IMG/VR virus record: IMGVR_UViG_3300021964_007369
Location: 27,801-91,800 of that record
Direction: 5' to 3' (one strand)
DNA from: a virus
DNA: 64,000 nt
Shown here: positions 34,301 to 60,395 of the stretch, one piece after another
Position numbering within the stretch: position 1 is the first letter of the stretch
Layout of the letters: the number at the start of each line of letters is the position of its first letter
Translations under genes and position numbers: made by a program
The notes under the pieces: model-generated
Seen by the model: only the letters and a program-made list of their open reading frames with translations
What the model was told of the DNA's origin: nothing
Database searches by the model: none

Positions 34301-37300
34301 ATCGGAAATACTTAGGCTTGCTCCAAATCCTTCATACTCGCTAATAGGAGAGTCTATAATTTGACTATATTGATATCTTCCGTTTGTCTTTCTATAGACA
34401 GCAACTTTTATTAGTGGCTTAGTACTGTCTTGATGATTAGTATAAGAAGCTGTTGTTACAAGTACTTCACCGTTTGCACTTACATCAAATTGTTCTCCAA
34501 AATTAGTAAGTAAATCTTGTTCAATTGCACTATCATCGCCTAATGTAATTCCACTTAGGTTCGGAATAAAGCCTTGTATTGCTGTGCTTTCAGAAATTTC
34601 AGTCCAAAAGTTGCTATTAAACGCTTGACTTGTAAGATTAGTTTTTGCTGTGTACAATTTATTATTATAGAATACAATTTCATCTTCAAAATAATCTGTT
34701 GTATTATCAAATACACCTCTATACTTAGGATCTTTACCTAATTGGAAAGTTGTATCGGTGCTTGTTTTATTAAAGAAATACAATCTTCCTTCATTATCTT
34801 CAGTATTATTTCCTGATGCATGAGCAATAATTGTATAGGTTGTGCCATCTTTAACAATTTTAATCTTATTACCTAGACGTAGATTATTTTGTGCTGTAGG
34901 CACTGTGAAATATCCATCTAAATTATAATCTTTTCCTGAACTTTTCTTGTATACTCCAATAACACCTTCATTTGTAAACCCACTTGCACTTGCTGTAGAT
35001 GATACTGGAATTTTATTTGTTTGTTGCCAGTCAAAGTTAAACTGATTCGGAGCGTCTACTGTTCTAGTAATACCTGTCTTTGATGTGTCTTCATATATCC
35101 AATATTCTAATCCAGTTAAACTAGTACTTGGACTAATAGGGATATCCTCTCCTTGATCAACTACAATTAATTTTCCAGCTGTTGCTGTATCAAGTTTAGT
35201 ATTAACAATATTACCAACAAGTCTTTCTGTACTATCATTTAAGAAAAACGATAGTGTAGATAAATCATTGTTTGCTTGTCCTAAACTCCAACCTGTAGTT
35301 GTATTTTTAACAAATAATCTTACTCTATCAAATAATCTAATAACTTTGGTTACTTCTGCACTTGCATTTGTTGCTTGGTCAAGAACTGTATCACCTACAA
35401 CAGGTATAAAAGGATTACCTTGTAAGTCAAAGTTTGTAAACAATACTTCAATTTCGCCATCCCATATATCATTTACAACATGTGTTGAACTGTTTAGATA
35501 ACTAAACGACAATCCTATAGCCGACGGGTTTTGTACAGCATTATTAACTCTTAGTGTATTAAGATTAAATCTAAATAGATCACCAATATCTAAAGTAGAG
35601 TTTACTGGTGCTCTAAATATCCATTCACTTGATAATGTTACAACTTCAGTTTGTCCTTCGACAAAACTTAAAGTTTCAATATAACTAATTGGAGTAACTT
35701 GTGCGGCAGGTACTGTTTTTAAATTATCATAGATATTTTGATATAAGTTTACAGTATCTACTTCATCAAGTTTAATAATATCTTTAATTATTAAATTTGG
35801 ATTAGTTTCAGCAACTACATCACTACTAAAAGTAGAACCAACATTTATTAACCACCAGCCATTGTAAGCTGTATAATCAGTTGGGAACACTTTTGTATAT
35901 TCACCTAAGTATGCAACTCCTGAATATATATCATCAGTAGTTTCAAAATCACCATTTACATCTTTTAAATAAATTATTGTTTTATTATCCGGATTATTAA
36001 ACCTATAATAAACTTCTGCTTTACCAGCGGTAGTTTGTACAGTATCACCTACACCCGGAACAGCTTGTGTGTTATCAATAAGAATAATTAAATCAATTTT
36101 TTCAACAATACTATGTTCACCGTTTATAAATTCTTTCGAAAGTACTGGACTATTGTCAAACGGTAATACTCCGCTTGCACTTAAAGTTGTATACTGATTC
36201 CATTTTAATTGTAATTTATCGCCTATCTTTGTAGCTTCGTACTGTGTAGCAGGTGCTTTAATTAAAATATGATCAGTTGCTTCAGATGGAAAGCTATAAT
36301 TTCCTCTAATTATATAAGGTATGTCTGGATAGTTTCCGTTTGCATCTACTAAAGGACTTATATTCAATGCACTACTATTAAATGTAGTAAATGTTGTTGT
36401 TTCTGCAGGGAGTATCTGTCGTCTTGCTCTCCAAAGTTGTTCTTTATACGAAACAATATCACCCTGGGCATAAGTTCTACCAAATTCAAACGTATCTTGA
36501 TATTGAGTCTTTACATTACTTGCATCAGGTGCTCCTATTGCAAAATATTCAGCATCTTTACTTATTGCAATACCCTTGCCAAAATTTGCATCAGCATCAA
36601 ATAGTGTAGAAGCTTCAGGTATATTTTGATTCTTTTTAAAGTCCTCTGATTCAGAAGCTCTTAAGAACACATCTACATCACCAATTCCTGAACTATTTTT
36701 GCCAGAAGCTATAAGTGTAGTGTTGTTAAGATCGACTGAAAAAGCACTTCCTAAAGTAGTACCTGTTTCGTCTGCTTCTATAAGTTTATCTTCTGAGTAA
36801 ATTATGTTATTCTGTAATACTTGCCACTTGCCAGTATCATCGTCATCAACCCATACTGTTTCGTCATTAAATAGTTTTGTTCGTGCAACAAATTCATTTA
36901 AATTTGAAAGTTTACTAATTCTTGCACTTTCAAATTTTGTTAAAAATCCATCAATGTTTTCTTCGTCAGTTACAGTACCTTGAATGGTAAGTTTGTTAAT
37001 ACTAACTTCTGTAACTTTATAGAATCCATCATTAGACGTATTAACTAATCCTACTATATCTCCAACTGTTATACTAGGAATAGTATCTAATGTTAAAGTA
37101 GCAGTATCACCGTTATTAACAATGTCTGTAATTCTATTTTCAGTACCGATGTGCTTATAAACATTCCAACTTTGTTTTTCGATTGCTACCCATACATATT
37201 CACCTGTAGCTACAAGTGTAATATCAAGGTCTGCAATGTTATCATAATTTAAAACTTTAAATTTAACATCGTCAGTATTAACATATCCAGCGTCTTTATA

Positions 37301-40300
37301 AGTTCCATCTGCAAAATACTTTGTAGGAAATGGTTTATGATCATAGTTATTAGGTTTAACATATACATCGCTAGGTAATGCTTTAACAATTAAACTAGTA
37401 TCTCTTGGATCTATTTGATTTACTAAATCAATCGGTTGTGGAGATAGTCTAAAATCTTTTTCATTAAGTTTAATTTCAAATTCTTCAAATCCACTACTTG
37501 CACCATACTGTCCTGACCTAATAGCCCATTCTTCAAAGAACTCTAAGCTCTCTTTACTGGCACTTCCTAGTTTGTCAAATAACTTTGTTAGTGCATTTTT
37601 TGTACCTTTGTCTCTAATAAAGCCTTGATAGAATTTGTATTGGCTAACGGAATCTGGAATAATATTTTCTAAATATTTTCTAGTTTGATAACCTATCAAA
37701 TGCTGTGCAAGTTTTTGTTGCTCAGTATCAAAATTATCACTTTCTAAATCATAAAAGTCTGCAAATTGATTTGCTTTATAATCCCAGTTAGGCAATAATC
37801 CTGATTCAGGTTTACTAGCTAACGCTATGAAATCGTCTGACTGGAATTTTTGTGATCCTATAATTTTGTTTTGTGCAGTATAATAAAACTGTTTGTATTT
37901 TACAATATCACCTATTGCATAATCTTTCCAAGCAACCCATTCAGTAGTTTCAGCAGAGTCATATATAAATCCTGGAATGTCTAGGCCGCCTGTCCAATCA
38001 TCACTTCTATAACCTAAAACTTTAATTCTTTCTTGCCTGTATCCACTTGGCTTATCATAGATAGTATCATTGAATACTGTGCTGTTATCTAATAATACAA
38101 CGTGTTCTTTTTGAACTGTTGGTATTTTAATATGGAATATGCCGTCAGCAGTATTAACAGTTTGTAACCCAAATTGATTACTATTATCTCTCGATATACT
38201 AGAAAACTCAGGAATAAACTTCTTTCCGTCGGCTTTTAGTAAACTATAATCAAAGAAGTTGTTAAACACATCATCAACTACTGCATATTCTTTTTCAAAT
38301 TTAATTATATTAGCACTAGGACTAATTGTTAATAAAGTTCCTTCTTTCCAATTCTGCAAAGTCCAGAACATAAACTCTTTTGCACTTAATTTCCAATCTT
38401 CAATTGATGTAATATTTGAATTGAAATTATCAAAAACAAAACCTTGAGCTTTTAAATATTCACCGTAGCCCAGTATAAAATCTACAACACTTTGTACATC
38501 TGAAAATGTTGTTCCATAACTTACTTCGGAAACTTCTTTTTCGTATACTTTTGCTATTAATGCTGTTGTGCCACCGTCTTCTGGTAAGAAAGGAAGTTTT
38601 GCAAAGTTATCTGCATTAAATGTATCTGAACTAGTATGTGCTGTAGTTACTCTATAAAATGTTGTATTAAACTGTACTATCTGATCCTGTGTATACACAC
38701 TATTAGAATCCCACGAAATAAATGACTGGCTTATTCCACCAATTCTAATTGCAGGATCATTTTGTTGTCTAATAGGAGCAAAATATTTAAACACAGGCGA
38801 AGTTTTATCATAACCTCGTACCATAAACCCATTAGCTCTTTTTTCTATAATAATTCCACTATAAGATACTAAGTCTAAAGGAGAACTAGTGTTTAAAAAT
38901 ATTTTATAATTTTCATCAGGAACAAAAAGATTTCCTTCATTAGTTGGAGTTCTGCTATCAAGAATTAATTTAAATTTATCTTTTTGTGTAAACCCGCCAA
39001 TTTTTATACCTAATTTATTATTAAGAGATTTAATTTCAGTCTTGTATTTTTTATAAGATTCTTCACTATTGCCTAATAAAATTGCTTGCATGTAATTTAC
39101 AAGACCTGAAGTATTTACTCTAGTATCATCATCTGCACCGTTAGGAAAAATAATATTTGTAGGTGACAAACGTTTACCTGTTGTTCCGTAAACTAAGTTT
39201 CCTGAAGCATCTCTTGAAGTTCTACTTCTATCAAATGCTGTTGCAAATACTTTTGATGGTTGATTTATTAGCCATGCTATTAATACTGAGAACGAGTAAT
39301 CAGAACTTTTACGCCATGCACTTTCAACTGGGCCTTCGTCACCGAATCTAAACGAGCTTGCAAATAAAGGTGTAATTGTATTTTTTGCTAATCCAGTTAA
39401 GTTCGGAGGCATTAGGTTTCCGTCATTATCAACAGGAATATATTTTAATAAATCTACATGTTTATATTTAGAAACTGTTTTTGTAGGTTGGTTTATAATT
39501 CCGTTTTGTATATCTGTCCATAAAACAAGGTTATCACTTGTATAAGGTGCAGTACCATATTCATCATCCCACCATGTGGGTTTGATAGTAAATCCTAAAC
39601 ACTCCCACGGATGTGTATGAGGTCTATCAGTTCCGTAGTATTCTTTATATATTGCTCTCCAATATCCAGGTAAATTATCTCCGTTTGGATATTGAGCGTG
39701 ACTATAATTATAAGTAAATCCATTGCCTATAGCATGTATTGTATTGTTTGTATAATCTATACTGCCAACTAAATCTAACCATTGATTAAAATCTACAATT
39801 AAAGAACTAGTAATTTCATATCGGTCAAAGTTTGTAGGATTTTCATAAGAACCTATAAAATCTTCTATATTAAATATAGTTTGATCGTATGCTTGCTTTA
39901 TATTATTGTAGATTCTTTTTTCTAATTCAATAATTAAATTATCTCTATAATCACCATAGGCTTTAATCTTACTTCCGTCGTGACCTTGAATCGTACATAC
40001 TAGTTTTGGATATGATTCGTAATCGTCAATATTATTTCCTGCTTCAGTACCACCAGTTGTAGGTAGATAAAAAACAATATTTGAACCATCAAACATAATA
40101 GGCTTGCTAGTTCCGTTGCCGCCGTTGTCAGTATCTAAAGAATTAGCATCTACTTCAGTAGTATACAAAGGATAATACCAGCCAAGTTTATTATTTTCAG
40201 TTCCGTATATTTTAAATGGGCCAGTTGTTTCAGGATCATTTAATACATATGAATCATCTATTGTAGCTGTAGGTATATACTTCGGATACAATCCTAATTT

Positions 40301-43216
40301 AGTAGGAGTAGCTGGTATCCAACACCCATCAGTTGACGTATAATCGTATATTGTTATTTGATCATTTTCAACTAACGTTCCTGTAATATTAATAAAGCCT
40401 TCGGTTGTTAAAACATAATCTTCATTTATTACTAGTTGTTGGTTATTTTTATAAACTGCTATTGCACGATTTGAAAGTACATTATTATCAAAAGTATCAC
40501 CGAAGCTAAAAAATTTGTCATTAATATCAAACACAGTATAATCGTATCTTAAAAATCCTTCAAAAGGAACCATGTCTGAAAAATAAAACGGATCAGTTTT
40601 TGTTTTATCTTGCATCATAGTTTTTAAAATAAGATCTACATGCTCCTTAACTGCGCCGTCGTATCCTAAAGAATCTGCTGTTTGGATGAACAAACGTTTA
40701 AACTTACCGTATTCAGCTTTTGCAAATCTAATTGCTTTTACAATATCACTTTCTTTATTTGTTAAATGATATGCTGAAAGGTTAATACTTCCGCTATGTT
40801 GTACAAATCTTGTTCCGTATTTTGATACAGGTCCTAAGTTTCTTAGGTTACTTGTTCCTGGATATGTTCCTTCAAAATCAGGAGTGTTTTCAATAATACT
40901 TTCAACGTGATCACTTACTTGTCCAAAAGTAAATGACGTAACATTTTCGTTAAGAGGATTATTTTCTAAGTTAATTGGAAACTCAAAATATCCGTTTGAA
41001 TTTTTCTTTGCTTTTGATTGTGTTTTTACTATTAACTTATCAGTTTCTGATAAATTATTTTCTAAGTTAACAAATCTAATATCATTTAAATTATATAAAC
41101 TATAATCTGAACCATTTTTTAGTTTTTTATTGTTAAGAAAAACTTCAACTATTAAATCTGATAAATTTCCACTATTTTTGTATACATCTATAGGATAATC
41201 ATTTATTAGTTCTTCTGTGTTATATTGTCTAACAACTTTTTGTTTACTGTCAGTGTCAGCCTTTATCCAGGATGTTACACTACTAAACTTTGTTCTATCT
41301 TGATATTGTTGTAAAAATAAATTATCTGTTGTTACGGTAATAACATCAGTACCTGATTGATAATTGAACTCATCACTTAGCAAATTAAAATCAAATATTA
41401 TATCTCCACTATTATTAATACTTTTATAACTTAACGGAAATCCTAATTCAGTATCTACTGTTCCAGTACCTTCTTTATAACTAAAAAGTTTAGTACCTGT
41501 AAATGTACTTGACTCGTATGTTGAAACACTTACTCCATCGTTATCAAACAAATCAAACAAAGGTGCTTGATTAATCTTAGTTTTTTCCTGTGCTATATTC
41601 CAAGTAGTTCCGTTATAAAATAAAATTTTACCTTTGTAGGCATTACCTGTTTTAACAAGTACTGTTTCGTTTAGTAAAGGATCGGAATCAGTTTCTTCTT
41701 TAAGAGCAATTTGTGTATTACCATTATGTAAAAGTAATGTAACTTTATAAACTTTGCCTTTTACTCGTGCATCAGTGTCTGCTCCAAATATAACACGCAT
41801 TCCTTCAACAAGTTCAATACCATCAACATTATAACCTAAACTACCTTCAACAACCGATAATGCATCTTTAGTAAAGTTATCAAATACGTCAACATCTTTT
41901 TTAACTTGTGTACCAGTGTTAATAAGTTTTAGTCCTTCGTCAAACTCAATAATAGGACGCTTTGCTCTATTATTTTGATCTAACAATGTTGTTAGTCCTA
42001 ATATTTTACTTGTAGTTGCAACAGTATCTTTATGGAACCATTTATTATATCTTGACCACTGGTTACTATCTGGTGAAGATCTATTAATAACAATATAATC
42101 TTTTGTTCCAGCATAACTTAGAGCATCATCAAAAGGAAGTTTGTCAAAAGGATTAGTATCAAATTCTGTGTTTATATCAGATAGATAACTTGCTGTAATT
42201 TCTAAATTATTAGCCAAAACTAATTTAATAGACTTACCAACACCTTCAACATACCATTCGCCTGTATCATATTTTGCTGGACTTACAATGCCTTCAAATT
42301 TTAATTTCATTCCATTTGAAAGTTCATATCCATTATTCATGGTATATGTTTTTCTGCCTATTATTTCTTCTTCAACATTTATTTCACTGTTTTCTTCTAT
42401 GTTTAATATTTTGATTAAACCACTTGCTTCAATATCAAGGTCATTCATGTAATACAAGTAAGGCGGTGCATCTAACGGAACAGTAAATGTAACTACTCCT
42501 TGCTCAACTTTTTGTTCTGATAAACCTTTGTTGTACAAATTATCATCTGCGATTCTACTAGTATTTCTAATAGCAAATGGCATATCATCTGTGTTAATAT
42601 TAAATGTATACGTTTGTCCACGATAAAGTGTAAGAGTAGGATTTGGTGTAGGTGTATCGTCGTCAAATGCATATGCAATATTGTCAACATTATCTACTTT
42701 TGTCACACTAATTGTTGATTGCAAATTTCGAGGTTCGCCAATTACAGTAATACTGTCTGGGCCGTTTGGTAGCCAATAGTATTCGCGGAAGTTAGTAAAC
42801 TTATCCCAATCAATATTAGGATTCCATGCATAATATTCTTGTGCATTTAGTTTACTATGATCTGTAACATTTCCTTGTCTTACTTTAATACTGTTGACAT
42901 AGTCATTATAATCAGCATAATAGTTTACGTTGTCAAGGTCATCTTCAATTACAACTGCTGGTTCAAGTTGATAATTTGATCTTTCATCACTTACATCACC
43001 AATATAGTTGTCTATTGTTTGGTTGTATGCTTTAGATGATTTGCGTCCAAAATAACCGTCAATCTTTTCAACTACACCAGGTTGGGTAAGTTGATCTAAT
43101 GTGCTGGTTAGAAATTTTTGGTTTGCTACTGTTCTAAAGTACTTAGGAAGCAACTCATGACTTCTACGCTTTTTATTGTTTTTTCCTAAAGGAATATTAA
43201 ATTCATCATTGGCCAT
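28370..43216 (-). CDS. Giant (4948 aa) multidomain virion/baseplate protein
   Basis: Uninterrupted 14.8-kb ORF downstream of the gp6-like gene; CBM5/12-like, FG-GAP-like, GxGY..P and GDGxTxxF repeats. Confidence 0.8.
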   Translation of the reverse strand: MANDEFNIPLGKNNKKRRSHELLPKYFRTVANQKFLTSTLDQLTQPGVVEKIDGYFGRKSSKAYNQTIDNYIGDVSDERSNYQLEPAVVIEDDLDNVNYYADYNDYVNSIKVRQGNVTDHSKLNAQEYYAWNPNIDWDKFTNFREYYWLPNGPDSITVIGEPRNLQSTISVTKVDNVDNIAYAFDDDTPTPNPTLTLYRGQTYTFNINTDDMPFAIRNTSRIADDNLYNKGLSEQKVEQGVVTFTVPLDAPPYLYYMNDLDIEASGLIKILNIEENSEINVEEEIIGRKTYTMNNGYELSNGMKLKFEGIVSPAKYDTGEWYVEGVGKSIKLVLANNLEITASYLSDINTEFDTNPFDKLPFDDALSYAGTKDYIVINRSSPDSNQWSRYNKWFHKDTVATTSKILGLTTLLDQNNRAKRPIIEFDEGLKLINTGTQVKKDVDVFDNFTKDALSVVEGSLGYNVDGIELVEGMRVIFGADTDARVKGKVYKVTLLLHNGNTQIALKEETDSDPLLNETVLVKTGNAYKGKILFYNGTTWNIAQEKTKINQAPLFDLFDNDGVSVSTYESSTFTGTKLFSYKEGTGTVDTELGFPLSYKSINNSGDIIFDFNLLSDEFNYQSGTDVITVTTDNLFLQQYQDRTKFSSVTSWIKADTDSKQKVVRQYNTEELINDYPIDVYKNSGNLSDLIVEVFLNNKKLKNGSDYSLYNLNDIRFVNLENNLSETDKLIVKTQSKAKKNSNGYFEFPINLENNPLNENVTSFTFGQVSDHVESIIENTPDFEGTYPGTSNLRNLGPVSKYGTRFVQHSGSINLSAYHLTNKESDIVKAIRFAKAEYGKFKRLFIQTADSLGYDGAVKEHVDLILKTMMQDKTKTDPFYFSDMVPFEGFLRYDYTVFDINDKFFSFGDTFDNNVLSNRAIAVYKNNQQLVINEDYVLTTEGFINITGTLVENDQITIYDYTSTDGCWIPATPTKLGLYPKYIPTATIDDSYVLNDPETTGPFKIYGTENNKLGWYYPLYTTEVDANSLDTDNGGNGTSKPIMFDGSNIVFYLPTTGGTEAGNNIDDYESYPKLVCTIQGHDGSKIKAYGDYRDNLIIELEKRIYNNIKQAYDQTIFNIEDFIGSYENPTNFDRYEITSSLIVDFNQWLDLVGSIDYTNNTIHAIGNGFTYNYSHAQYPNGDNLPGYWRAIYKEYYGTDRPHTHPWECLGFTIKPTWWDDEYGTAPYTSDNLVLWTDIQNGIINQPTKTVSKYKHVDLLKYIPVDNDGNLMPPNLTGLAKNTITPLFASSFRFGDEGPVESAWRKSSDYSFSVLIAWLINQPSKVFATAFDRSRTSRDASGNLVYGTTGKRLSPTNIIFPNGADDDTRVNTSGLVNYMQAILLGNSEESYKKYKTEIKSLNNKLGIKIGGFTQKDKFKLILDSRTPTNEGNLFVPDENYKIFLNTSSPLDLVSYSGIIIEKRANGFMVRGYDKTSPVFKYFAPIRQQNDPAIRIGGISQSFISWDSNSVYTQDQIVQFNTTFYRVTTAHTSSDTFNADNFAKLPFLPEDGGTTALIAKVYEKEVSEVSYGTTFSDVQSVVDFILGYGEYLKAQGFVFDNFNSNITSIEDWKLSAKEFMFWTLQNWKEGTLLTISPSANIIKFEKEYAVVDDVFNNFFDYSLLKADGKKFIPEFSSISRDNSNQFGLQTVNTADGIFHIKIPTVQKEHVVLLDNSTVFNDTIYDKPSGYRQERIKVLGYRSDDWTGGLDIPGFIYDSAETTEWVAWKDYAIGDIVKYKQFYYTAQNKIIGSQKFQSDDFIALASKPESGLLPNWDYKANQFADFYDLESDNFDTEQQKLAQHLIGYQTRKYLENIIPDSVSQYKFYQGFIRDKGTKNALTKLFDKLGSASKESLEFFEEWAIRSGQYGASSGFEEFEIKLNEKDFRLSPQPIDLVNQIDPRDTSLIVKALPSDVYVKPNNYDHKPFPTKYFADGTYKDAGYVNTDDVKFKVLNYDNIADLDITLVATGEYVWVAIEKQSWNVYKHIGTENRITDIVNNGDTATLTLDTIPSITVGDIVGLVNTSNDGFYKVTEVSINKLTIQGTVTDEENIDGFLTKFESARISKLSNLNEFVARTKLFNDETVWVDDDDTGKWQVLQNNIIYSEDKLIEADETGTTLGSAFSVDLNNTTLIASGKNSSGIGDVDVFLRASESEDFKKNQNIPEASTLFDADANFGKGIAISKDAEYFAIGAPDASNVKTQYQDTFEFGRTYAQGDIVSYKEQLWRARRQILPAETTTFTTFNSSALNISPLVDANGNYPDIPYIIRGNYSFPSEATDHILIKAPATQYEATKIGDKLQLKWNQYTTLSASGVLPFDNSPVLSKEFINGEHSIVEKIDLIILIDNTQAVPGVGDTVQTTAGKAEVYYRFNNPDNKTIIYLKDVNGDFETTDDIYSGVAYLGEYTKVFPTDYTAYNGWWLINVGSTFSSDVVAETNPNLIIKDIIKLDEVDTVNLYQNIYDNLKTVPAAQVTPISYIETLSFVEGQTEVVTLSSEWIFRAPVNSTLDIGDLFRFNLNTLRVNNAVQNPSAIGLSFSYLNSSTHVVNDIWDGEIEVLFTNFDLQGNPFIPVVGDTVLDQATNASAEVTKVIRLFDRVRLFVKNTTTGWSLGQANNDLSTLSFFLNDSTERLVGNIVNTKLDTATAGKLIVVDQGEDIPISPSTSLTGLEYWIYEDTSKTGITRTVDAPNQFNFDWQQTNKIPVSSTASASGFTNEGVIGVYKKSSGKDYNLDGYFTVPTAQNNLRLGNKIKIVKDGTTYTIIAHASGNNTEDNEGRLYFFNKTSTDTTFQLGKDPKYRGVFDNTTDYFEDEIVFYNNKLYTAKTNLTSQAFNSNFWTEISESTAIQGFIPNLSGITLGDDSAIEQDLLTNFGEQFDVSANGEVLVTTASYTNHQDSTKPLIKVAVYRKTNGRYQYSQIIDSPISEYEGFGASLSISDDGTKIFIGAPQNSVEAIDSGTVYVYNQVNGTFDLTQTIRSIDKEINTQFGTALSYDAGTLSVTSRGGDIENKTRFDSGTTVFDNKLTTFVTTDSDSGTVSIFELINNTLVYAQDFSLNRDVLYYGDNVKVSSNHVYVSLPEYDNPDDSTTAKGLIIDYKKIRGSKSWRTLRSPIDQANLEKFNGAFLYNTKTQKLVTYLDYIDPIQGKIAGPAEQELAFKTSYDPATYSNVTDNVATQDTLNYTNKKFVGKLWWDIDSTRWINPYQGDIITSINNFSSKFPGTTVNVYEWVQSTLNPEQWDQLADSESGLAQGISGVSLYGNNAYSLIREYDESTGTFTTYYYFWVKNKRIVPNIPGRKISAFEVTQFIDNPDNQGYKFLTFLGNNKFALHNCESLIEDNDIALNVRYWTLDNQDINIHNEYQILTEGLANSKPNVDIERKWFDSLIGYDAQARVVPDPVLSAKQKYGIQNIPRQSMFINRNEAVKQLFERINIVLKEKLIVDEYDLSDLNRRSPTPSIASNEFDRSIDTYAELRLVNTATVKQAKLNLILVNGKIAEIQVTDQGAGYITPPTVEIIDSQGEAGEISLTIDSDGKVNSANIINEGKNYSDSVSAIVRPFTILINADETIGGRWATYALTGTTFQRASSQAYNVSRYWSYIDWYATGYNANTAINFVVNGAYELESIQDSLGSVVKINSVGTGGWLLLKKINDLPGVDYTVNYQTVGRQNGTIKFNSLIYDSKISNTGFDGISYDSGFFDLQPVEELRIILTAIKEKIFITDLEIEYNKLFFSSLRYAFAEQPYIDWAFKTSFVKAKHNVGNLEQKITFKNDSLPSYEEFIKEAKPYKSKIREYVSSYTQIENSQSSVTDFDAPPVYNERAGEIRPQGIIVDGDRVLTGDAETDIYPSKYFIDNVGYEITKIVIGNAGKLYSSAPAVVITGGGGSGATAQAYLGSNGKISSIKVTNSGSGYITAPAVTLNGSIEDGGVEASVSAELGNGKIRNAHIICKFDRTTGTMLLQTLDTTESFVSLANQQLFDLKYPMSLDTNSVTITVNGIEALRSQYTISNIKDTKKGYTRQTGRVSFNTAPTTNSNIVIKYNKDITMLQAQDRISLFYNPTTGMLANDLSQLLEGIDYGGVEVNSINFGGGAGWDADKWFTSSYDTFDTTYEDEVFRITDDSTKVYTLAKPLASGTVYNVYRNGIRIDDPNFGTDAQTNTSAIISSITGSGQTGFTFQDDQNLENIVQFDEEVVTVQDEDIFIIRKQTSDGSFVADPASYDTLIQGGNLNYTTASGVRPEDIIIDGDGFVTPTTSKGPEELVPGQILDTVDIKVFHRSGKGGSVISSNSYRGDGNTTVFKFGVLPQNEDSLFIKVNSTLYAKTQYTVDYANKQITFTTAPSTGSLVNLVSLSGNGEKILDMDVFIGDGSTTSFVTRVNKQDEVNYYVTIDGKVPESIIDIVDGRYVLTFGEAPKDGSIINYAIYEGEAQTFSEIKIDNFVGDGSTGTFTLSLTPFTAQPAIQNMIVKVGNTILSSGYKETFNVVTGREYQMREWQQEPGKLSSNDIKVYLNGTRELISAQDYIIRPFNSSIELFEGVGVPGDLLEIYVTVDSEYSLTTVDDDSTGFTTITFDSIPTINQTIEVYHFSNHDVQNIEKQNFDVVNRVALTVGTDEHEEYHRLRNGVVPLPNIPVDVNYVWVTLNKVLLTPSIDYKLTSNKKAIKLKNNPADNDTIEIIQFSTEGVLGNKFGFRQFKDLTNRTVYKRLGDAKEYRLLNDLNVFDKEIVLDDVSGIAQPNPKDNLPGVIMIGSERIEFFKMTENKLSQLTRGTLGTGVATTHTAGSEVLNQGFQQTVPYKDETVTLTFDGDGSTTAYDLGFTPATNNEFDVFVGGKRLRKNSISKFNVLLDQDSPEADETIPAEFTVDGTTSVVTLAVAPEMGEKVIITRKIGRLWTPNGSSLETTNNLITRFLKAEQAALPE

Positions 43217-55667: not shown

Positions 55668-56678
55668 TTGTTCAAAAAAGCGGCAGTATTCACTGACATT
55701 CACCTTGGATTAAAAGGAAACAGTAAAGTACACAATGACGACTGTGAAGCATTTGTAGATTGGTTTATTGAGCAAGCTCAAGCCAATGGATGCGAAACAG
55801 GTATTTTTTGTGGCGACTGGCATCATAATAGAAGCAGTCTTAACCTAACAACTATGGACGCAACAATACGTTGTCTTGAAAAGTTAGGCGGAGCATTTAA
55901 AAACTTTTATATGTTTGTTGGTAATCATGACTTGTATTATAAAGACAAACGTGACGTAAGTTCAACAGAATTTGCTAGACATATACCAGGCATCACTGTT
56001 GTAGATAAATTTACTGAGATTGAAGACGTTGCATTGGTTCCTTGGCTTGTAGGTGATGAATGGAAAAAGATTGAAAAATGCACTGCCAAGTATATGTTTG
56101 GTCATTTTGAACTTCCTAGCTTCTATATGAACGCTATGGTACAGATGCCTGATCACGGTGACTTAAAAGCACAACATTTTAAGCATCAAGACTATGTGTT
56201 TAGTGGACACTTCCATAAACGTCAAGTACAAGGTAAGATTCATTACATCGGTAATGCATTTCCGCACAACTATGCAGATGCATGGGACGATGAGCGTGGC
56301 ATGATGATACTCGATCGAGAAAATAGCAAAGATCCAGAATACCTTAATTGGGGACAATGCCCGAAATATAGAACTGTTAAGTTATCTCAATTAATCGACG
56401 AACAAGAATCTTTAATAAAACCCAACATGTATCTACGTGTTACTTTAGATCTTCCTATATCTTATGAAGAAGCAAGTTTTATTAAAGAAACTTACATAAA
56501 CAATTTTGGGTGTAGAGAGATTACACTTATACCACAGAAACAAGATGAGGAAATATCAACTTCGTTGGATATATCAAAGTTTGAAAGTGTTGATGAAATA
56601 GTTTCTAAAGAAATTAGTGAAATTGATAGTGATAGTTTTGATAAGAAGACATTGTTAGATATCTATAGCGACTTATAA
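55668..56678 (+). CDS. gp47: Mre11/SbcD-like recombination nuclease (T4 gp47-like)
   Basis: Metallophosphoesterase motifs DIH, GDWHH, GNHD, GHF, SGHFH. Confidence 0.9.
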   Translation: MFKKAAVFTDIHLGLKGNSKVHNDDCEAFVDWFIEQAQANGCETGIFCGDWHHNRSSLNLTTMDATIRCLEKLGGAFKNFYMFVGNHDLYYKDKRDVSSTEFARHIPGITVVDKFTEIEDVALVPWLVGDEWKKIEKCTAKYMFGHFELPSFYMNAMVQMPDHGDLKAQHFKHQDYVFSGHFHKRQVQGKIHYIGNAFPHNYADAWDDERGMMILDRENSKDPEYLNWGQCPKYRTVKLSQLIDEQESLIKPNMYLRVTLDLPISYEEASFIKETYINNFGCREITLIPQKQDEEISTSLDISKFESVDEIVSKEISEIDSDSFDKKTLLDIYSDL

Positions 56679-58451
56679 ATGATAAAAATTAAAGACCTAA
56701 CCGTAAAGAATTTCATGAGTGTGGGTAATCAAACCCAAGCTGTTGACTTTGATAAGCAACAACTTACACTTGTGTTGGGAGAAAACTTAGATCAAGGCGG
56801 AGACGATAGTGGTTCACGTAATGGTACAGGTAAGACTACAATTATTAATGCACTAAGTTATGCATTGTATGGATTAGCATTAACAAACATACGCAGAAAT
56901 AACTTAATTAATAAAACTAATTCAAAAGGTATGTTAGTTACACTACATTTTGAAAAAGATAACGTAGACTATCGCATCGAAAGAGGTCGTAGTCCTAATA
57001 TTCTTAAGTTTTATGTAAACAATGAAGAACAAGAAATGACAGACGAATCGCAAGGCGATAGTCGCAAAACACAAGAAGATATTAACACACTTCTTGGTAT
57101 GAGCCATGATATGTTTAAACATATTGTTGCACTAAACACTTATACTGAGCCATTCCTTAGTATGAAACAAAATGATCAACGTGCTATTATAGAACAGTTG
57201 TTAGGTATTACTATTCTTAGTGAAAAAGCTGATATCCTAAAAGAACAAGTTAAACAAACTAAAGATGCTATTACACAAGAAACCTTAAAGATTGAAGCAA
57301 TACAAACTGCTAATAGTAAAATTGAAGGCACTATTACTAGTTTACAAGGAACGCAACGTGCTTGGATTGCTAAGAAGCAACAAGACATGAATAATTTAGC
57401 ATCTGCAATCGACGAATTAGAACACTTAGATGTTAATGTTGAGTTAGAATCACATGAAAAACTAGTAAATTGGAACGAGCATAACAATGCTATTTTGGCT
57501 CTTAAAAAAGAATTAAGCACATTGGAGCCAGCATTACAACGTGCGGAGAAGAGTGTTGAAAAAGCAACTAAAGACATATCAAATCTTGAAGAGGCTACTT
57601 GTTATACTTGTGGACAAGAACTACATGCAGATAAAAAAGCAGAATTAGAAGCACGTAAAGAAAAAGAATTAGATGAGGCAATCGACTATCGATCGGAGAT
57701 TACTAAAAAAGTAGATGACGTTATTAAAGGTCTTGATGACATTGGTGATATCAATGGCAAACCTACTACTTACTATGAAACAGCAAAAGAAGCATACGAG
57801 CATAGACAAAATGTTGACAGTTTAAAAACTGCACTTGAAAATAAAACATCTGAAACAGATCCTTATCAAACACAGATTGACGAATTAAACAATACTGCTA
57901 TACAAACTGTTGACTGGGTTGAAGTTAATCAACTTACAAATTATAAAGACCATCAAGAATTCTTGTTGAAACTGTTAACTAACAAAGATAGTTTTATTCG
58001 TAAGAAAATTATTGAACAAAACTTAGCATACTTAAACAATAGACTTACATATTACTTGGATAAGTTAGGATTACCGCATCAGGTTGAATTCTTAAACGAC
58101 TTAACAGTACAAATTACACAACTTGGACAAGACTTAGATTTTGATAACTTGAGTAGAGGTGAACGTAATAGACTTATACTTGGTATGAGTTTTGCATTTA
58201 GAGATGTTTGGGAAAGTCTATATCAGAATATCAACTTATTGTTTATTGATGAGTTAATTGATAGTGGCATGGATATTTCAGGTGTTGAAAATTCACTTGC
58301 TGTAATTAAGAAAATGGGTCGTGAGCGTCAAAAAAATGTATTTTTAATCTCACACAAAGACGAGCTTATAGGACGTGTGAATCATTTGCTTAAAGTAGTT
58401 AAAGAAAATGGGTTTACATCATATGAAAATGATATTGATATTGTAGAATGA
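56679..58451 (+). CDS. gp46: Rad50/SbcC-like ATPase (T4 gp46-like)
   Basis: Walker A NGTGKT, zinc hook CYTC in coiled coil, LSRGE signature, LFIDE, ISH. Confidence 0.92.
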   Translation: MIKIKDLTVKNFMSVGNQTQAVDFDKQQLTLVLGENLDQGGDDSGSRNGTGKTTIINALSYALYGLALTNIRRNNLINKTNSKGMLVTLHFEKDNVDYRIERGRSPNILKFYVNNEEQEMTDESQGDSRKTQEDINTLLGMSHDMFKHIVALNTYTEPFLSMKQNDQRAIIEQLLGITILSEKADILKEQVKQTKDAITQETLKIEAIQTANSKIEGTITSLQGTQRAWIAKKQQDMNNLASAIDELEHLDVNVELESHEKLVNWNEHNNAILALKKELSTLEPALQRAEKSVEKATKDISNLEEATCYTCGQELHADKKAELEARKEKELDEAIDYRSEITKKVDDVIKGLDDIGDINGKPTTYYETAKEAYEHRQNVDSLKTALENKTSETDPYQTQIDELNNTAIQTVDWVEVNQLTNYKDHQEFLLKLLTNKDSFIRKKIIEQNLAYLNNRLTYYLDKLGLPHQVEFLNDLTVQITQLGQDLDFDNLSRGERNRLILGMSFAFRDVWESLYQNINLLFIDELIDSGMDISGVENSLAVIKKMGRERQKNVFLISHKDELIGRVNHLLKVVKENGFTSYENDIDIVE

Positions 58452-58669
58452 ACGATATAGAAGACGATATACACGATCAATTAACAAAAGCGTATCTTGA
58501 TTATTTCAAAGCAAACGAAAAGTTTGAAAGAAATAACTCTATTAGAACACATCGAGAAGTAAGAAAATGGCTACGGGTAATACGTAGCCTAGCAAAACAA
58601 CGTTCTGACGAGATACATCTAAAGCATACAACTACAAGGCAAACCAGATCAGGCGACGATAAAAAATAG
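58448..58669 (+). CDS. Small basic helical protein, possibly Hc1/histone-H1-like nucleoid protein
   Basis: 73 aa, ATGA overlap with gp46; NEKFE..R..R..L..I..LAK.R.. helical hairpin pattern (weak). Confidence 0.5.
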   Translation: MNDIEDDIHDQLTKAYLDYFKANEKFERNNSIRTHREVRKWLRVIRSLAKQRSDEIHLKHTTTRQTRSGDDKK

Positions 58670-58686
58670 GTCCAATATATAATGCT

Positions 58687-59136
58687 ATGCAGTGGACTTA
58701 TGACGGAAAAATAATAGACGAAATACCAGAAGAATATGAAGGATTTGTTTATCTTATTACCAATACCACTACAGGCCAAAAATACATAGGCAAAAAACTA
58801 GCAAAATTTAAAACTACTAAGCCACCACTCAAAGGCAAGAAAAACAAAAGACGAGGCTACAAAGAAAGCGACTGGCGTACTTACTGGGGATCCAGTGATA
58901 GACTAAACGCAGATGTGGCCGCACTAGGCGAAGACAAGTTTACAAGAGAAATACTATACCTATGTAAAGGTAGGGGCGAAATGTCCTATATAGAGGCAAG
59001 AGAACAGTTTGATAGGCGTGTGCTTGAAACAGATGAATACTATAATGGTATTATTAATGTTAGAGTAGGCGGATCAGACAAACTCAAACAGGCATTGCTA
59101 GAACAAAACATCAAGGCAAAACAATCTAACACTTAA
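58687..59136 (+). CDS. GIY-YIG endonuclease (T4 endonuclease II/Seg-like)
   Basis: GFVYLITN..KYIGKK, YWGSS, conserved E (YIEAREQ) and YYN. Confidence 0.85.
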   Translation: MQWTYDGKIIDEIPEEYEGFVYLITNTTTGQKYIGKKLAKFKTTKPPLKGKKNKRRGYKESDWRTYWGSSDRLNADVAALGEDKFTREILYLCKGRGEMSYIEAREQFDRRVLETDEYYNGIINVRVGGSDKLKQALLEQNIKAKQSNT

Positions 59137-59545
59137 GGTTGGCGGGCCAGTTTATAATACCGCTGAGTAAAGGGTGACGTGAAAATCACACTCGTACACG
59201 TTGAGCCGCGTCCGGTAGTAGGGCGGCAGGATTGGCGTAGATTGACTGTTAGCAATCGAAAAACACAACACAGTTCATAAAAACTCTTTAGCAATAGGAA
59301 CGAAGCGAGAGGTATTACGGTGTAGCGTATATTTTAAGAATATACGGCGTAGCGTAAGATGTCGACGTAGGTTGGGAAAGGTCAGAGCCCATTGAACTAA
59401 GTGTATAAACAAATAACCTACTTCCAATGTCTCGGCTGTGGCGAACTCACATGAAGACCAAGATTAGATGGAACCAGCGATTAGGTTCCGTCTGACTGAA
59501 ACAATCTACATGAAGTAACTACAATATTACTTCGTAATATTGCTT
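59137..59545 (+). ncRNA. Candidate large structured non-coding RNA, family not recognised
   Basis: Gene-free, GC-richer than flanks; multiple stems with G-U pairs and long-range pairing GTAGATTG(59237-44)/CAATCTAC(59502-09). Confidence 0.5.
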
Positions 59546-59637
59546 TAATTATTGTTTATCACTTCTATCACACATAATCAAATACGAAGTAAATAGTTTG
59601 AGCGTTAGCGAAAACAAATATCTACGAAGTAGATATT
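59522..59637. repeat. Cluster of inverted repeats with TAC-GAA-GTA triloop core
   Basis: CAATATTAC-TTC-GTAATATTG (59522-42), TACGAAGTA (59583-91), AATATCTAC-GAA-GTAGATATT (59617-37). Confidence 0.75.
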
Positions 59638-59687
59638 GAATATATATGCATAAATAATGTATAAGACAAATATAGGTAGGAACACTA

Positions 59688-60395
59688 ATGAGATTAATTG
59701 ATATTACTTCAACAGATTCTGACTTAAACGAAGCACCTGCTGGTTTTTTTAAACAAGGACTTAAGAAGATAGGTGCAAAAGCGGCCGCTAAAGTTGGAAT
59801 GAAGGGTACAGCCGCAAGTTTAGCCCAGCAAGTAGACACTGGAGCGTCAGCAAACCAACTTAAAGTAGATCTTCAAGGATACTTAGGTGGTATTGGCGGT
59901 AGTTTAAAGAAATTAGATGCTACTGAACTAAAAGCATTTTTAGCAAGTAAAAAAATGCCTACTAATTCAGTACCTGCAAGCGGAATTGTTCCTCCAAAAG
60001 AATTAGATAACATCCTTTTAAAAACATTACAACAAAGTAAAAAAGTTACAGGCGCACCGGCTGTTGGAGCAAAACAAGATCCATCAGCAATCGGAAGCGG
60101 AACAGCACCAGCAGGTGGTGGACAAGCACAAGGTGGATCACAGGCACCACAAGCACAAGGTGGACAAGCACAAGGTGGACAAGCACCGGCACAGGGTGGC
60201 GGACAAGCGCCAGCGCCAAACGATGCTAATAATGACGGTAAAGACGATACAACAGGAAAAGTTATTCCAATGAAAAAACCTGGAGCGGCACCTGCCGCAG
60301 GCGGACAGGCTTCTGCTGGAATTCCTGATGCATTACAAACACAATTAGATGCGTTGACGCCAACTGAGAAAAAAGCACTAGCAGGAATAATATAA
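59688..60395 (+). CDS. Probable internal head (ejection) protein with N-terminal LxE propeptide
   Basis: MRLIDIT..DLNE|AP; preceded by TAAATA (59651-56); Ala/Gly/Lys/Gln-rich. Confidence 0.55.
   Translation: MRLIDITSTDSDLNEAPAGFFKQGLKKIGAKAAAKVGMKGTAASLAQQVDTGASANQLKVDLQGYLGGIGGSLKKLDATELKAFLASKKMPTNSVPASGIVPPKELDNILLKTLQQSKKVTGAPAVGAKQDPSAIGSGTAPAGGGQAQGGSQAPQAQGGQAQGGQAPAQGGGQAPAPNDANNDGKDDTTGKVIPMKKPGAAPAAGGQASAGIPDALQTQLDALTPTEKKALAGII
60117..60210 (+). repeat. Coding tandem repeat (GGQAQ units, ~15 nt)
   Basis: GGTGGACAAGCACAA-like units repeated within the ORF. Confidence 0.7.

What the first reader, a model, noticed from the sequence alone, without database searches (positions are those of the whole stretch)
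59137..59520. Candidate unrecognised large structured RNA directly downstream of the GIY-YIG nuclease
Seen: the only long gene-free stretch in 64 kb, GC-richer than its flanks and starting right at the nuclease stop. Stems include GCCGC/GCGGC (59205-27), CGTATATT/AATATACG (59326-46), GTAGGTTG/TAACCTAC (59367-59421) and the 12-bp TTAGATGGAACC/GGTTCCGTCTGA with two G-U pairs (59464-95). GTAGATTG/CAATCTAC closes a ~270-nt domain. GGTCAGA (59380-86) can pair with TCTGACT (59491-97) as a pseudoknot or alternative fold. TTAGCAAT and ACATGAAG each occur twice. G-U-compatible mismatches favour folding of the + strand transcript. Inference: a large ncRNA or ribozyme, possibly a partner of the adjacent nuclease. 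I could not match it to tmRNA, RNase P, group I/II introns or tRNA.
Basis: partly seen in the sequence, partly recalled or inferred. Interest (0 to 1): 0.78.

Follow-up and report, generated by a model that had tools for sequence, protein, structure and literature searches.

The report
Twin-box structured RNA of aquatic phages
The gene-free stretch behind a small nuclease gene of this uncultured giant marine phage encodes a real, intricately knotted RNA of about 500 bases from a widespread family that matched no Rfam model here; it carries one 7-letter word twice, the two copies change together between phages, and its job is still unknown.

Summary
Window 59137-59548 is the only long ORF-free gap in 64 kb, and its GC is 0.45 against 0.34. 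It lies in a conserved element of about 510 nt (59125-59637, + strand). On 58 non-redundant members, 91% of pair cells form standard pairs, against 34-40% when the 3' partners are slid. 44 pairs show changes on both sides.

- GTAGATTG/CAATCTAC: GATTG pairs locally instead.
- GGTCAGA/TCTGACT: loop GUC (59381-83) covaries with GAC (59364-66), a pseudoknot I derived here.

A long two-part pseudoknot (59268-77 with 59393-404) is well supported.

ACATGAA occurs at 59449 and 59508. The two copies are identical in 117 of 123 unique members, through ten different variant words. I found no complement in cis, none within ±3.5 kb, and no co-varying site across seven phage contigs.

No Rfam family matches, including Polynucleobacter-1, which earlier notes of this scan name for freshwater relatives. 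The nuclease looks like a neighbour, not a partner. Function is unknown. My best guess is a trans-acting scaffold or ribozyme-like RNA whose two boxes are read by one nucleic-acid partner. The scan has met this family before on other DNA.

The parts
58687..59136 (+). 149-aa GIY-YIG-only protein gene. It is the upstream neighbour, and its last codons overlap the conserved 5' end of the RNA element.
   Evidence: Pfam PF19835 SegE_GIY-YIG, E 4.7e-35. PHROG 447, 1.1e-38. A homolog lies directly upstream in 117 of 126 loci.
59125..59637 (+). The whole conserved structured RNA element, about 510 nt: a 5' domain, a pseudoknotted core, the twin-box region and a 3' tail of four hairpins.
   Evidence: Conservation profile and alignments A1 and A2. 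Where a different ORF lies upstream, conservation still begins at TCTAACAC. 91.2% of pair cells are paired, against 34-40% in slid controls.
59142..59194 (+). 5' domain: Pa 59142-45/59160-63, Pb 59164-67/59191-94, and inner hairpin Pb2 59174-77/59186-89.
   Evidence: Pa is 98.7% paired and nearly invariant. Pb is 97.4% paired, with UA changing to AU. In Pb2, 4 of 4 pairs show changes on both sides.
59198..59238 (+). Helix Pc 59198-201/59235-38, enclosing a variable-length domain. In this window that domain is the hairpin GCCGC/GCGGC at 59205-27.
   Evidence: Pc is 98.7% paired, and 3 of 4 pairs are compensated (UA/CG, AU/GC). The domain length varies from about 20 to about 110 nt.
59240..59257 (+). 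Hairpin Pd, GATTG/CAATC.
   Evidence: 97.6% paired; 4 of 5 pairs show changes on both sides.
59268..59277 (+). 5' strands of pseudoknot PK1: ACAC 59268-71 and GTTCA 59273-77.
   Evidence: 59273-77 pairs with 59393-97: 97.2% paired, 5 of 5 pairs compensated (GTTCA/TGAAC, GTAC/GTAC, TACAC/GTGTA). The second part (ACAC/GTGT changing to CTGC/GCAG) was read by eye. It counts only 66% paired because the alignment shifts there.
59284..59311 (+). Hairpin Pf (CTCTT/GAGAG) with the conserved 18-nt loop TAGCAATAGGAACGAAGC (59289-59306).
   Evidence: 88.6% paired; 3 pairs compensated (CUCU/AGAG, CCCC/GGGG, CCGU/ACGG). GGAACGA is invariant.
59316..59356 (+).
   Evidence: Other members have a different hairpin here, a GNRA-capped mini-hairpin, or nothing.
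59364..59383 (+). Pseudoknot PK3, derived here: GAC 59364-66 pairs with GUC 59381-83 in the loop of hairpin Pi.
   Evidence: 3 of 3 pairs hold in 121 of 122 unique members. Variants are GUG/CAC, GCA/UGC, GCU/AGC, GAU/AUC, GAU/AUU and GAU/GUU.
59367..59421 (+). Core stem Ph, GTAGGT/ACCTAC. It encloses hairpin Pi (TGGG 59373-76 / CCCA 59388-91) and the 3' strands of PK1 (59393-97 and 59401-04).
   Evidence: Ph and Pi are 100% paired. Compensations are GCAGGT/ACCTGT for Ph, and GGGG/CCCC, CGGG/CCCG and TGGA/TCCA for Pi. The 21-mer at 59370-90 is identical in at least 120 contigs.
59449..59455 (+). Twin box 1, ACATGAA.
   Evidence: Identical to box 2 in 117 of 123 unique members, through 10 variant words.
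59467..59492 (+). Hairpin Pj, GATGGAACC/GGTTCCGTC, between the two boxes.
   Evidence: 98.7% paired. Changes are mostly one-sided (G-U to G-C, A-U to G-U), with one UA compensation. U-A replaces G-C at the base in L201.
59491..59497 (+). Nearly invariant strand TCTGACT. Its partner is unknown; it is not the loop GUC.
   Evidence: It stays unchanged while loop bases 59381-83 vary.
59508..59514 (+). Twin box 2, ACATGAA.
   Evidence: The spacing from box 1 is 51-68 nt across members, with no multiple-of-3 constraint.
59522..59637 (+). 3' tail of four hairpins: T1 59522-30/59534-42 (UUC loop), T2 59561-65/59586-90, T3 59596-99/59612-15 (conserved loop GAGCGTTAGCGA), and T4 59618-25/59629-36 (GAA loop).
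   Evidence: Pairs with changes on both sides: T1 7 of 8, T3 4 of 4, T4 8 of 8. Inside the T3 loop, C4-G9 changes to U4-A9. No canonical terminator or sigma-70 promoter stands out.

Best explanation
This is a gene for a large non-coding RNA of about 510 nt with at least two pseudoknots, read from the + strand. It is one member of a widespread family carried by uncultured aquatic phages.

Shown: the RNA folds into three parts.
- A 5' domain (Pa-Pd) with a variable insert.
- A core in which stem Ph/Pi is locked by two pseudoknots, PK1 (59268-77 with 59393-404) and PK3 (59364-66 with 59381-83).
- A 3' region that presents the same single-stranded 7-nt word, ACAUGAA, on either side of hairpin Pj, followed by four further hairpins.

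Inferred:
- It is transcribed together with, or from within, the upstream gene. The conserved RNA sequence begins right at that gene's stop codon, and no promoter stands out.
- It acts in trans as a folded scaffold or ribozyme-like RNA, not as a leader of the downstream gene.
- The two boxes are read by base pairing with one and the same short nucleic-acid partner, either two copies of it or the same strand at two steps of a reaction. That would explain why the boxes must stay identical while their sequence is free to drift.
It is either host-derived or produced by copying one box.
- The GIY-YIG nuclease is a syntenic neighbour, not a functional partner.
For: Family size: at least 120 contigs with the 21-mer, and 58 loci not fetched by the first scan that carry a 5' motif. 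Three MAG contigs also match.

Structure: 91.2% of pair cells paired against 34-40% slid; 44 pairs and 462 cells with changes on both sides, against 75-135 cells slid; 0 of 500 shuffles reach the observed values. PK1 has 5 of 5 pairs compensated. PK3 holds in 121 of 122 members with six compensating variant types.

Non-coding: stops in every frame and 1-nt indels.

Strand: frequent G-U pairs on +.

Twin boxes: identical in 117 of 123 unique members, with 10 variant words. Their strongest covariation partner in the alignment is always the other box.

No cis reader:
- No complement within -450 to +600 nt or within ±3.5 kb.
- No reverse match of the 10-mer on the 335-kb phage contig.
- No complement in that phage's tRNAs or tmRNA.
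- 0 of 11 informative homologous sites co-vary across seven contigs with six different box words.

Not a leader: in L126, L057 and L043 the downstream genes are on the other strand.

Nuclease separable from the RNA.
Against: No transcript data exist, so the ends, the processing and even the expression are inferred. No partner for the boxes was found anywhere, so base pairing in trans is an argument by exclusion. A sequence-specific protein that differs between hosts could also demand two identical sites. Covariation of hairpins alone would also fit single-stranded DNA. The minimum-free-energy z-score is not significant. The partner of the nearly invariant strand TCTGACT is unknown.
Confidence: 0.45

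Rival explanations
1. Processing model. The two boxes are identical recognition or cleavage sites for one sequence-specific endoribonuclease or for the RNA's own catalytic core. Cutting at both sites releases the roughly 59-nt hairpin unit between them. The released unit could act as a small RNA or decoy, as the repeat units of type III antitoxin RNAs do, or it could be circularised.
For: One structured unit (Pj) is flanked by two identical words. The core has a 21-mer that is invariant in at least 120 contigs, as catalytic or protein-binding cores often are. Identity of the boxes without any complement is what two sites for one enzyme would give. Differences between host enzymes could explain the drift.
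Against: There is only one unit, never an array. The large conserved scaffold is not needed for a decoy. No toxin or nuclease partner is known. No Rfam self-cleaving ribozyme matches.
Confidence: 0.17
2. Template-jump model. A polymerase copies the stretch between the boxes. Because the boxes are identical, the nascent strand made on one box can re-anneal on the other. This would give either repeated copying or skipping of the unit. From my own knowledge, not tested here: the direct repeats in retroviral R regions and in the DRT2 defence RNA work this way.
For: It explains box identity without any third locus, which fits the empty searches. The word length of 7-10 nt is close to the length of a primer-template hybrid.
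Against: No reverse transcriptase is found in the 91.8-kb record. The unit length varies from 51 to 68 nt with no frame constraint. The unit carries stop codons on both strands, read from the sequence, so it cannot give an endless ORF. The inter-box segment includes a nearly invariant strand, which suggests a structural role.
Confidence: 0.08
3. One reading: the RNA is the guide or cofactor of the adjacent GIY-YIG nuclease, forming an RNA-protein system.
For: The synteny is tight. A GIY-YIG homolog lies directly upstream in 117 of 126 loci, and it is often more conserved than SbcC, for example 97% against 83% in L096.
Against: - Another ORF intervenes in L119, L126, L057 and L043.
- L046 has the RNA next to a terminase gene, with no GIY-YIG match within 3.5 kb on either side.
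- Phage Melnitz has the nuclease at 71% identity but no RNA.
- No nuclease column tracks the box word.
- From my own knowledge, no GIY-YIG enzyme is known to use an RNA guide.
Confidence: 0.07
4. A DNA-level or cis-regulatory element: a replication origin, a packaging signal, or a long 3' UTR or 5' leader that controls neighbouring genes.
For: It sits at the border between the gp55-47-46-type early cluster and the structural genes. Its tail holds stable triloop hairpins, which another first-stage note flagged (note 1). In L046 it lies about 1.2 kb upstream of the terminase gene.
Against: Pseudoknots with compensatory changes, strand-specific G-U pairs and GNRA/UUCG-type loops indicate folded RNA. 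The downstream genes differ, or lie on the other strand, in several members. There is no GC-skew turn at the site.
Confidence: 0.08
5. A degenerate group I intron or another known ribozyme class, associated with a homing endonuclease gene.
For: GIY-YIG genes often sit in group I introns. The size fits, and the word GGGAAAGG...AGCC recalls the P element of group I introns. That resemblance is from memory only.
Against: No Intron_gpI or other ribozyme hit appears even at E up to 10 or in 25 relatives. No split host gene exists: SbcC and the flanking ORFs are complete. The helix topology differs, since the partner of the post-hairpin strand is not a P7-like strand and the loop pairs 5' of its own stem.
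Confidence: 0.03

Closest known systems
Polynucleobacter-1 RNA motif (Rfam RF01718; Weinberg et al. 2010, PMC2864571)
   Same: It is an orphan structured RNA from aquatic metagenomes. Its authors describe it as lying downstream of a small phage-like gene family (GOS11034, similar to cyanophage P-SSM2 locus 218). In their Stockholm file the 3' flank ends with GUAGGUUGAAUCUAGCGAAAGUUCAUAAAAC, which resembles Pd plus the PK1 5' strand here. Earlier notes of this scan report that in freshwater relatives it forms the first third of the same RNA.
   Different: The model does not match this window at E up to 10. It also does not match 25 diverse family members. The 5' domain here is shorter and of a different sequence type. 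The core, the twin boxes and the tail are not part of that motif.
Large 'ornate' orphan RNAs often carried by phages: GOLLD (RF01998), ROOL (RF03087), HEARO, OLE
   Same: These are several hundred nucleotides long, have many helices with covariation plus pseudoknots, are phage-borne and have no known function.
   Different: No sequence or structure match appears in cmscan. None of them is known to carry a pair of co-varying direct repeats; that statement rests on my own knowledge.
Free-standing Seg-type GIY-YIG genes of T4-like phages, and T4 endonuclease II
   Same: The upstream neighbour is a SegE-type GIY-YIG domain protein inserted between core genes.
   Different: It is only 149 aa, with no DNA-binding tail. 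It is conserved across the whole clade, not patchy. It concerns the neighbouring gene, not the RNA.
Type III antitoxin RNAs (ToxI) and the DRT2 template RNA. These are functional analogies drawn from my own knowledge.
   Same: Short direct repeats delimit a structured RNA unit, which is read by one enzyme (ToxN) or used for template jumping (DRT2).
   Different: There is a single unit inside a 500-nt scaffold. No toxin or reverse transcriptase gene is nearby. There is no array.

Membership tests
Polynucleobacter-1 (RF01718) | Match to the Rfam covariance model at or above the gathering score | tested here: not met
   No hit at gathering in the window. No hit at E up to 10 in 58900-59800, at E up to 1 in 10 relatives, or at gathering in 15 more.
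Polynucleobacter-1 (RF01718) | Position downstream of the GOS11034 / PSSM2_218-like small gene | tested here: inconclusive
   The RNA lies downstream of a 149-aa GIY-YIG gene that has many cyanophage homologs. I did not show that this gene is GOS11034.
Group I intron (RF00028) | Model match, P3-P7 pseudoknot topology and flanking exons | tested here: not met
   No hit. No interrupted gene. The topology differs.
tRNA / tmRNA | Detection by ARAGORN or Rfam | tested here: not met
   0 genes in the window and no Rfam hit. As a control, both tools found tRNAs and a permuted tmRNA on the related 335-kb contig, away from the RNA locus.
RNase P RNA, GOLLD, ROOL, HEARO, 6S and known self-cleaving ribozymes | Match to the Rfam model | tested here: not met
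RNA guide of an adjacent nuclease (as in OMEGA or CRISPR systems) | Obligate co-occurrence with the nuclease gene, and co-variation with it | tested here: not met
   The RNA occurs with no GIY-YIG match within 3.5 kb on either side (L046). The nuclease occurs without the RNA (Melnitz). No co-varying protein column was found.
Repeat arrays (CRISPR, ToxI-type) | Three or more tandem units | tested here: not met
   There are exactly two boxes and one unit in 110 of 123 members. Extra copies are scattered and not in register.
Structured non-coding RNA (generic) | Compensatory base changes that preserve helices, and no conserved reading frame | tested here: met

The most novel reading that the evidence does not exclude
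The twin-box RNA is a new class of phage ribozyme or ribonucleoprotein. Its two identical boxes mark the two ends of a unit that is either excised or copied by template jumping, or they dock the same host nucleic acid twice. If so, selection keeps two sites identical without any complementary partner encoded in the genome, a mode of RNA sequence constraint that I do not know to have been described for structured bacterial or phage RNAs.
Probability: 0.2. Interest if true: 0.9.

Novelty: new variant of a known kind. Interest (0 to 1): 0.75.

Why it matters
Large, highly structured RNAs with no assigned function are rare and have repeatedly led to new biochemistry; ribozymes, riboswitches and the RNA cages of ROOL and GOLLD are examples from my own knowledge. 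This RNA is abundant in uncultured aquatic giant phages. It has a 21-nt stretch that is identical in more than a hundred divergent contigs, and at least two pseudoknots. It also shows an unusual signature: two direct repeats that co-vary. That signature gives a concrete, testable handle, namely to mutate one box, then both. Any explanation (a trans partner, a processing enzyme or a template jump) would be informative about how phages use RNA.

Tried and rejected
- **Coding potential:** rejected. Stops occur in all frames, relatives differ by 1-nt indels, and the box spacing is not a multiple of 3.
- **Thermodynamic test alone:** uninformative, with z about -1 on both strands.
- **Cultured phages:** blastn of the region against 50,697 phage records found nothing. 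Melnitz has the nuclease but not the RNA.
- **Complement of the boxes in cis:** none within -450 to +600 nt or ±3.5 kb. No third covariation partner appears in the alignment.
- **Box words elsewhere:** no enrichment of the box word in the window. On the 335-kb contig the 10-mer has no reverse-strand match, and its two extra forward copies are an internal coding site and an ordinary gene start.
- **tRNAs and tmRNA of the 335-kb phage:** no complement to the boxes.
- **Co-varying third site:** a comparison across seven contigs with six different box words gave 0 of 11.
- **Anticodon-loop reading of the box complement:** rejected. The implied loops (G37, U38 with a CAU anticodon) are not those of natural tRNAs. 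This rests on my own knowledge.
- **Box-box antiparallel pairing through the palindrome CAUG:** rejected. It fails for CAUA and CAGA variants.
- **Reverse transcriptase in the 91.8-kb record:** none.
- **Association of GIY-YIG or the 73-aa protein with the box word:** only clade signal.
rejected.
- **Resemblances to the RNase P P4 helix, the group I P element and a 16S rRNA segment:** these came from memory only. No model hit supports them, so I do not rely on them.

Full report
**Where the window comes from.** The window is the last 64 kb of a 91.8-kb IMG/VR viral record estimated at 25% complete. The genes around the finding are:
- an SbcD-like phosphoesterase (55668-56678);
- an SbcC/Rad50-like ATPase (56679-58451);
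- a 73-aa ORF (58448-58669);
- a 149-aa SegE-type GIY-YIG protein (58687-59136);
- the gap;
- a 235-aa low-complexity protein (59688-60395) and a 725-aa protein;
- a T4-type baseplate protein on the other strand.

The best cultured relatives of the SbcC-like protein are the Pseudomonas jumbo phage PA5oct and its kin, at only 50% identity. There the same order is seen: late sigma factor, SbcD, SbcC. This is therefore an uncultured T4-like giant phage.

**Checking the observation.**
- 59137-59548 is the only stretch of 300 nt or more in the window without an ORF of 90 aa or more. Its GC is 0.448 against 0.34.
- All forward frames are closed.
- Neither Rfam (gathering, whole window; E up to 10, 58900-59800) nor ARAGORN recognises anything.
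- Folding energy alone does not single the region out: z = -0.96 and -1.14 on the two strands. The case rests on comparison.

**Relatives.**
- Six viral contigs with the same gene order, about 75% identical in the coding flanks, show a block at 59357-59512 that is nearly invariant yet contains 1-nt indels.
- It also occurs in three MAG contigs. One is a 335-kb contig binned with a Neomarinimicrobiota MAG. That contig has the same locus and is most likely a giant phage genome.
It added 58 loci not fetched by the first scan. In all 29 of these that reach far enough downstream, the 21-mer is not exact.
- None of 50,697 cultured-phage records matches.

**Extent.** Conservation runs from about 59125 to about 59637. 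The first conserved word, TCTAACAC, stays the same even where a different ORF precedes it. So the element is about 510 nt, longer than the finding.

**Structure.** I tested sixteen named helices (85 pairs) on 58 non-redundant members (A2).
- 91.2% of cells form standard pairs, against 34-40% when the 3' partners are slid by 1-3 columns.
- 44 pairs and 462 cells show changes on both sides, against 75-135 cells in the slid controls.
- No shuffle out of 500 reaches the observed values.
- Independent mutual-information and helix scans found the same helices.
- Well supported: Pb2, Pc, Pd, Pf, Ph, Pj and the tail hairpins T1, T3 and T4.
- Also well supported is the long-range pseudoknot PK1. In 59273-77/59393-97, all 5 pairs are compensated, through GUUCA/UGAAC, GUAC/GUAC and UACAC/GUGUA.
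- A second part of PK1 (ACAC/GUGU changing to CUGC/GCAG, 59268-71/59401-04) is clear by eye. It counts only 66% paired because the alignment shifts there.
- Many pairs are G-U on the + strand. These would be A-C on the other strand, so the + strand is the one that folds.

- The proposed closing helix GTAGATTG/CAATCTAC is not real. GATTG forms a local hairpin with CAATC, with compensation, while CAATCT never changes with it.
- The proposed pseudoknot GGTCAGA/TCTGACT could not be judged on the first sample, which I had selected for that very loop. The second, unbiased sample settles it. Loop bases 59381-83 vary (CAC, UGC, AGC, AUC, AUU, GUU), and the 3' strand stays UCUGAC, so only 0-2 of 3 pairs remain. 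The same changes are matched by the triplet just 5' of stem Ph (59364-66: GUG, GCA, GCU, GAU).
- This new pseudoknot, PK3, holds with 3 of 3 pairs in 121 of 122 unique sequences.
- Pi also gains compensations in this sample (GGGG/CCCC, CGGG/CCCG, UGGA/UCCA).
- The partner of the nearly invariant strand TCTGACT is unknown.

**The twin boxes.**
- ACATGAA occurs at 59449 and 59508, on either side of hairpin Pj.
- Across 123 unique members the two 7-mers are identical in 117. Four of the six exceptions are parsing slips, and two are real single differences.
- The shared word takes ten non-consensus forms: ACATGAT, ACATAAT, ACGTGAA, GCATGAA, GCATAAA, GTATGAA, ACAGAAA, ACATGAG, ACATAAA and ACAGGAA in L188.
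- For every variable box column, the best covariation partner in the alignment is the same column of the other box.
- The repeats are direct, not complementary. The spacing varies from 51 to 68 nt with no codon periodicity.

**Looking for a reader of the word.**
- No complementary 7-mer at a consistent place within -450 to +600 nt or ±3.5 kb.
- No reverse-strand copy of the 10-mer on the 335-kb contig, and nothing in that phage's tRNAs or tmRNA.
- A homologous-site comparison of seven contigs carrying six different words gave no co-varying complement or third copy, 0 of 11 informative sites. The contigs measure 92, 335, 83, 46, 40, 31 and 24 kb.
- The record holds no reverse transcriptase.
- Neither the GIY-YIG protein nor the 73-aa protein has a column that separates the box types beyond clade signal.

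**Relation to the nuclease.**
- A GIY-YIG homolog lies directly upstream in 117 of 126 loci. Most of the rest simply lack upstream sequence.
- In L119, L126, L057 and L043 another small ORF intervenes.
- In L046 the RNA sits in a quite different phage context, about 1.2 kb upstream of a terminase large-subunit gene, with no SbcCD or GIY-YIG match within 3.5 kb on either side.
- The cultured methylophage Melnitz has the protein at 71% identity but no trace of the RNA.
- I therefore read the nuclease as a neighbour conserved by synteny, not as a partner.

**Comparison with what is known.**
- No Rfam family matches the window or 25 diverse relatives.
- Earlier notes of this scan call this family the 'twin-box RNA'. 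They state that in freshwater relatives its first third is the Polynucleobacter-1 motif (RF01718).
- In my sample that model never hits, so membership is not met here.
- The 2010 description does place that motif downstream of a small phage-like gene family. The 3' flank in the authors' alignment resembles Pd and the PK1 5' strand. A distant relationship of the 5' domains is therefore plausible but unproven by me.
- In kind, the RNA resembles the large orphan RNAs GOLLD, ROOL, HEARO and OLE.
- From my own knowledge, the co-varying direct repeats have no counterpart among them.

**How it most likely works.**
- Shown: a large pseudoknotted RNA fold with two identical single-stranded words.
- Inferred: identity without a fixed sequence, and without any complement in cis or in the sampled phage DNA, is most simply explained if one nucleic-acid strand reads both boxes by pairing. 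That strand could be host-derived or copied from one of the boxes.
- The main rival is one sequence-specific enzyme that cuts or binds at both sites and releases the inter-box hairpin.
- I rate a trans-acting scaffold or ribozyme-like RNA with a base-pairing reader at about 0.45, the processing model at 0.17, template jumping at 0.08, a nuclease partner at 0.07, a DNA-level or cis-regulatory element at 0.08, and a degenerate known ribozyme or intron at 0.03.

**Verdict.** This is a real feature of high interest. It is a new, largely uncatalogued family within the known kind of large orphan structured RNAs, with an unusual direct-repeat constraint. Function remains unknown. The scan has found the same family before on other genomes.

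Noticed in passing
window 28370-43216 (- strand): A single giant ORF of 4948 aa. One chance copy of the box word lies inside it.
   Followed up: no
window 59688-60395: The 235-aa protein just downstream of the RNA is rich in repeats of the QGGQAQGG type and has no Pfam or PHROG match. Relatives keep it at only 27-67% identity.
   Followed up: partly
L141-L157 (G001:C57, 335,231 bp): This contig, binned with a Candidatus Neomarinimicrobiota MAG, carries the same GIY-YIG-plus-RNA locus. It also holds 10 tRNA genes, a permuted alphaproteobacterial-type tmRNA (RF01849, 145 bits) and a glutamine riboswitch (RF01739). It is most likely a mis-binned giant phage whose host may be a marine alphaproteobacterium.
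   Followed up: partly
window 58687-59136 and relatives: The GIY-YIG protein is often better conserved than SbcC in the same contigs, for example 97% against 83% in L096 and 96% against 83% in L044. That is unusual for a selfish homing endonuclease. PHROG 447 labels this family 'NAD synthetase', which looks like an annotation error.
   Followed up: partly
window 59317-59354: Inside the variable hairpin Pg, the word ACGG(T/C)GTAGCG occurs twice, at 59317-27 and 59344-54, flanking the stem. Several relatives share this arrangement.
   Followed up: no
window 59600-59611: The conserved T3 loop GAGCGTTAGCGA contains its own mini-hairpin: C4-G9 changes to U4-A9 in relatives. It is flanked by possible tandem G-A pairs and capped by GNNA-type loops.
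   Followed up: partly
L046 (IMGVR_UViG_3300006925_002229, 8.2 kb): This is a divergent family member in a different phage context. The RNA lies upstream of two small ORFs and a terminase large subunit, and a near-perfect sigma-70 promoter lies about 470 nt upstream.
   Followed up: partly
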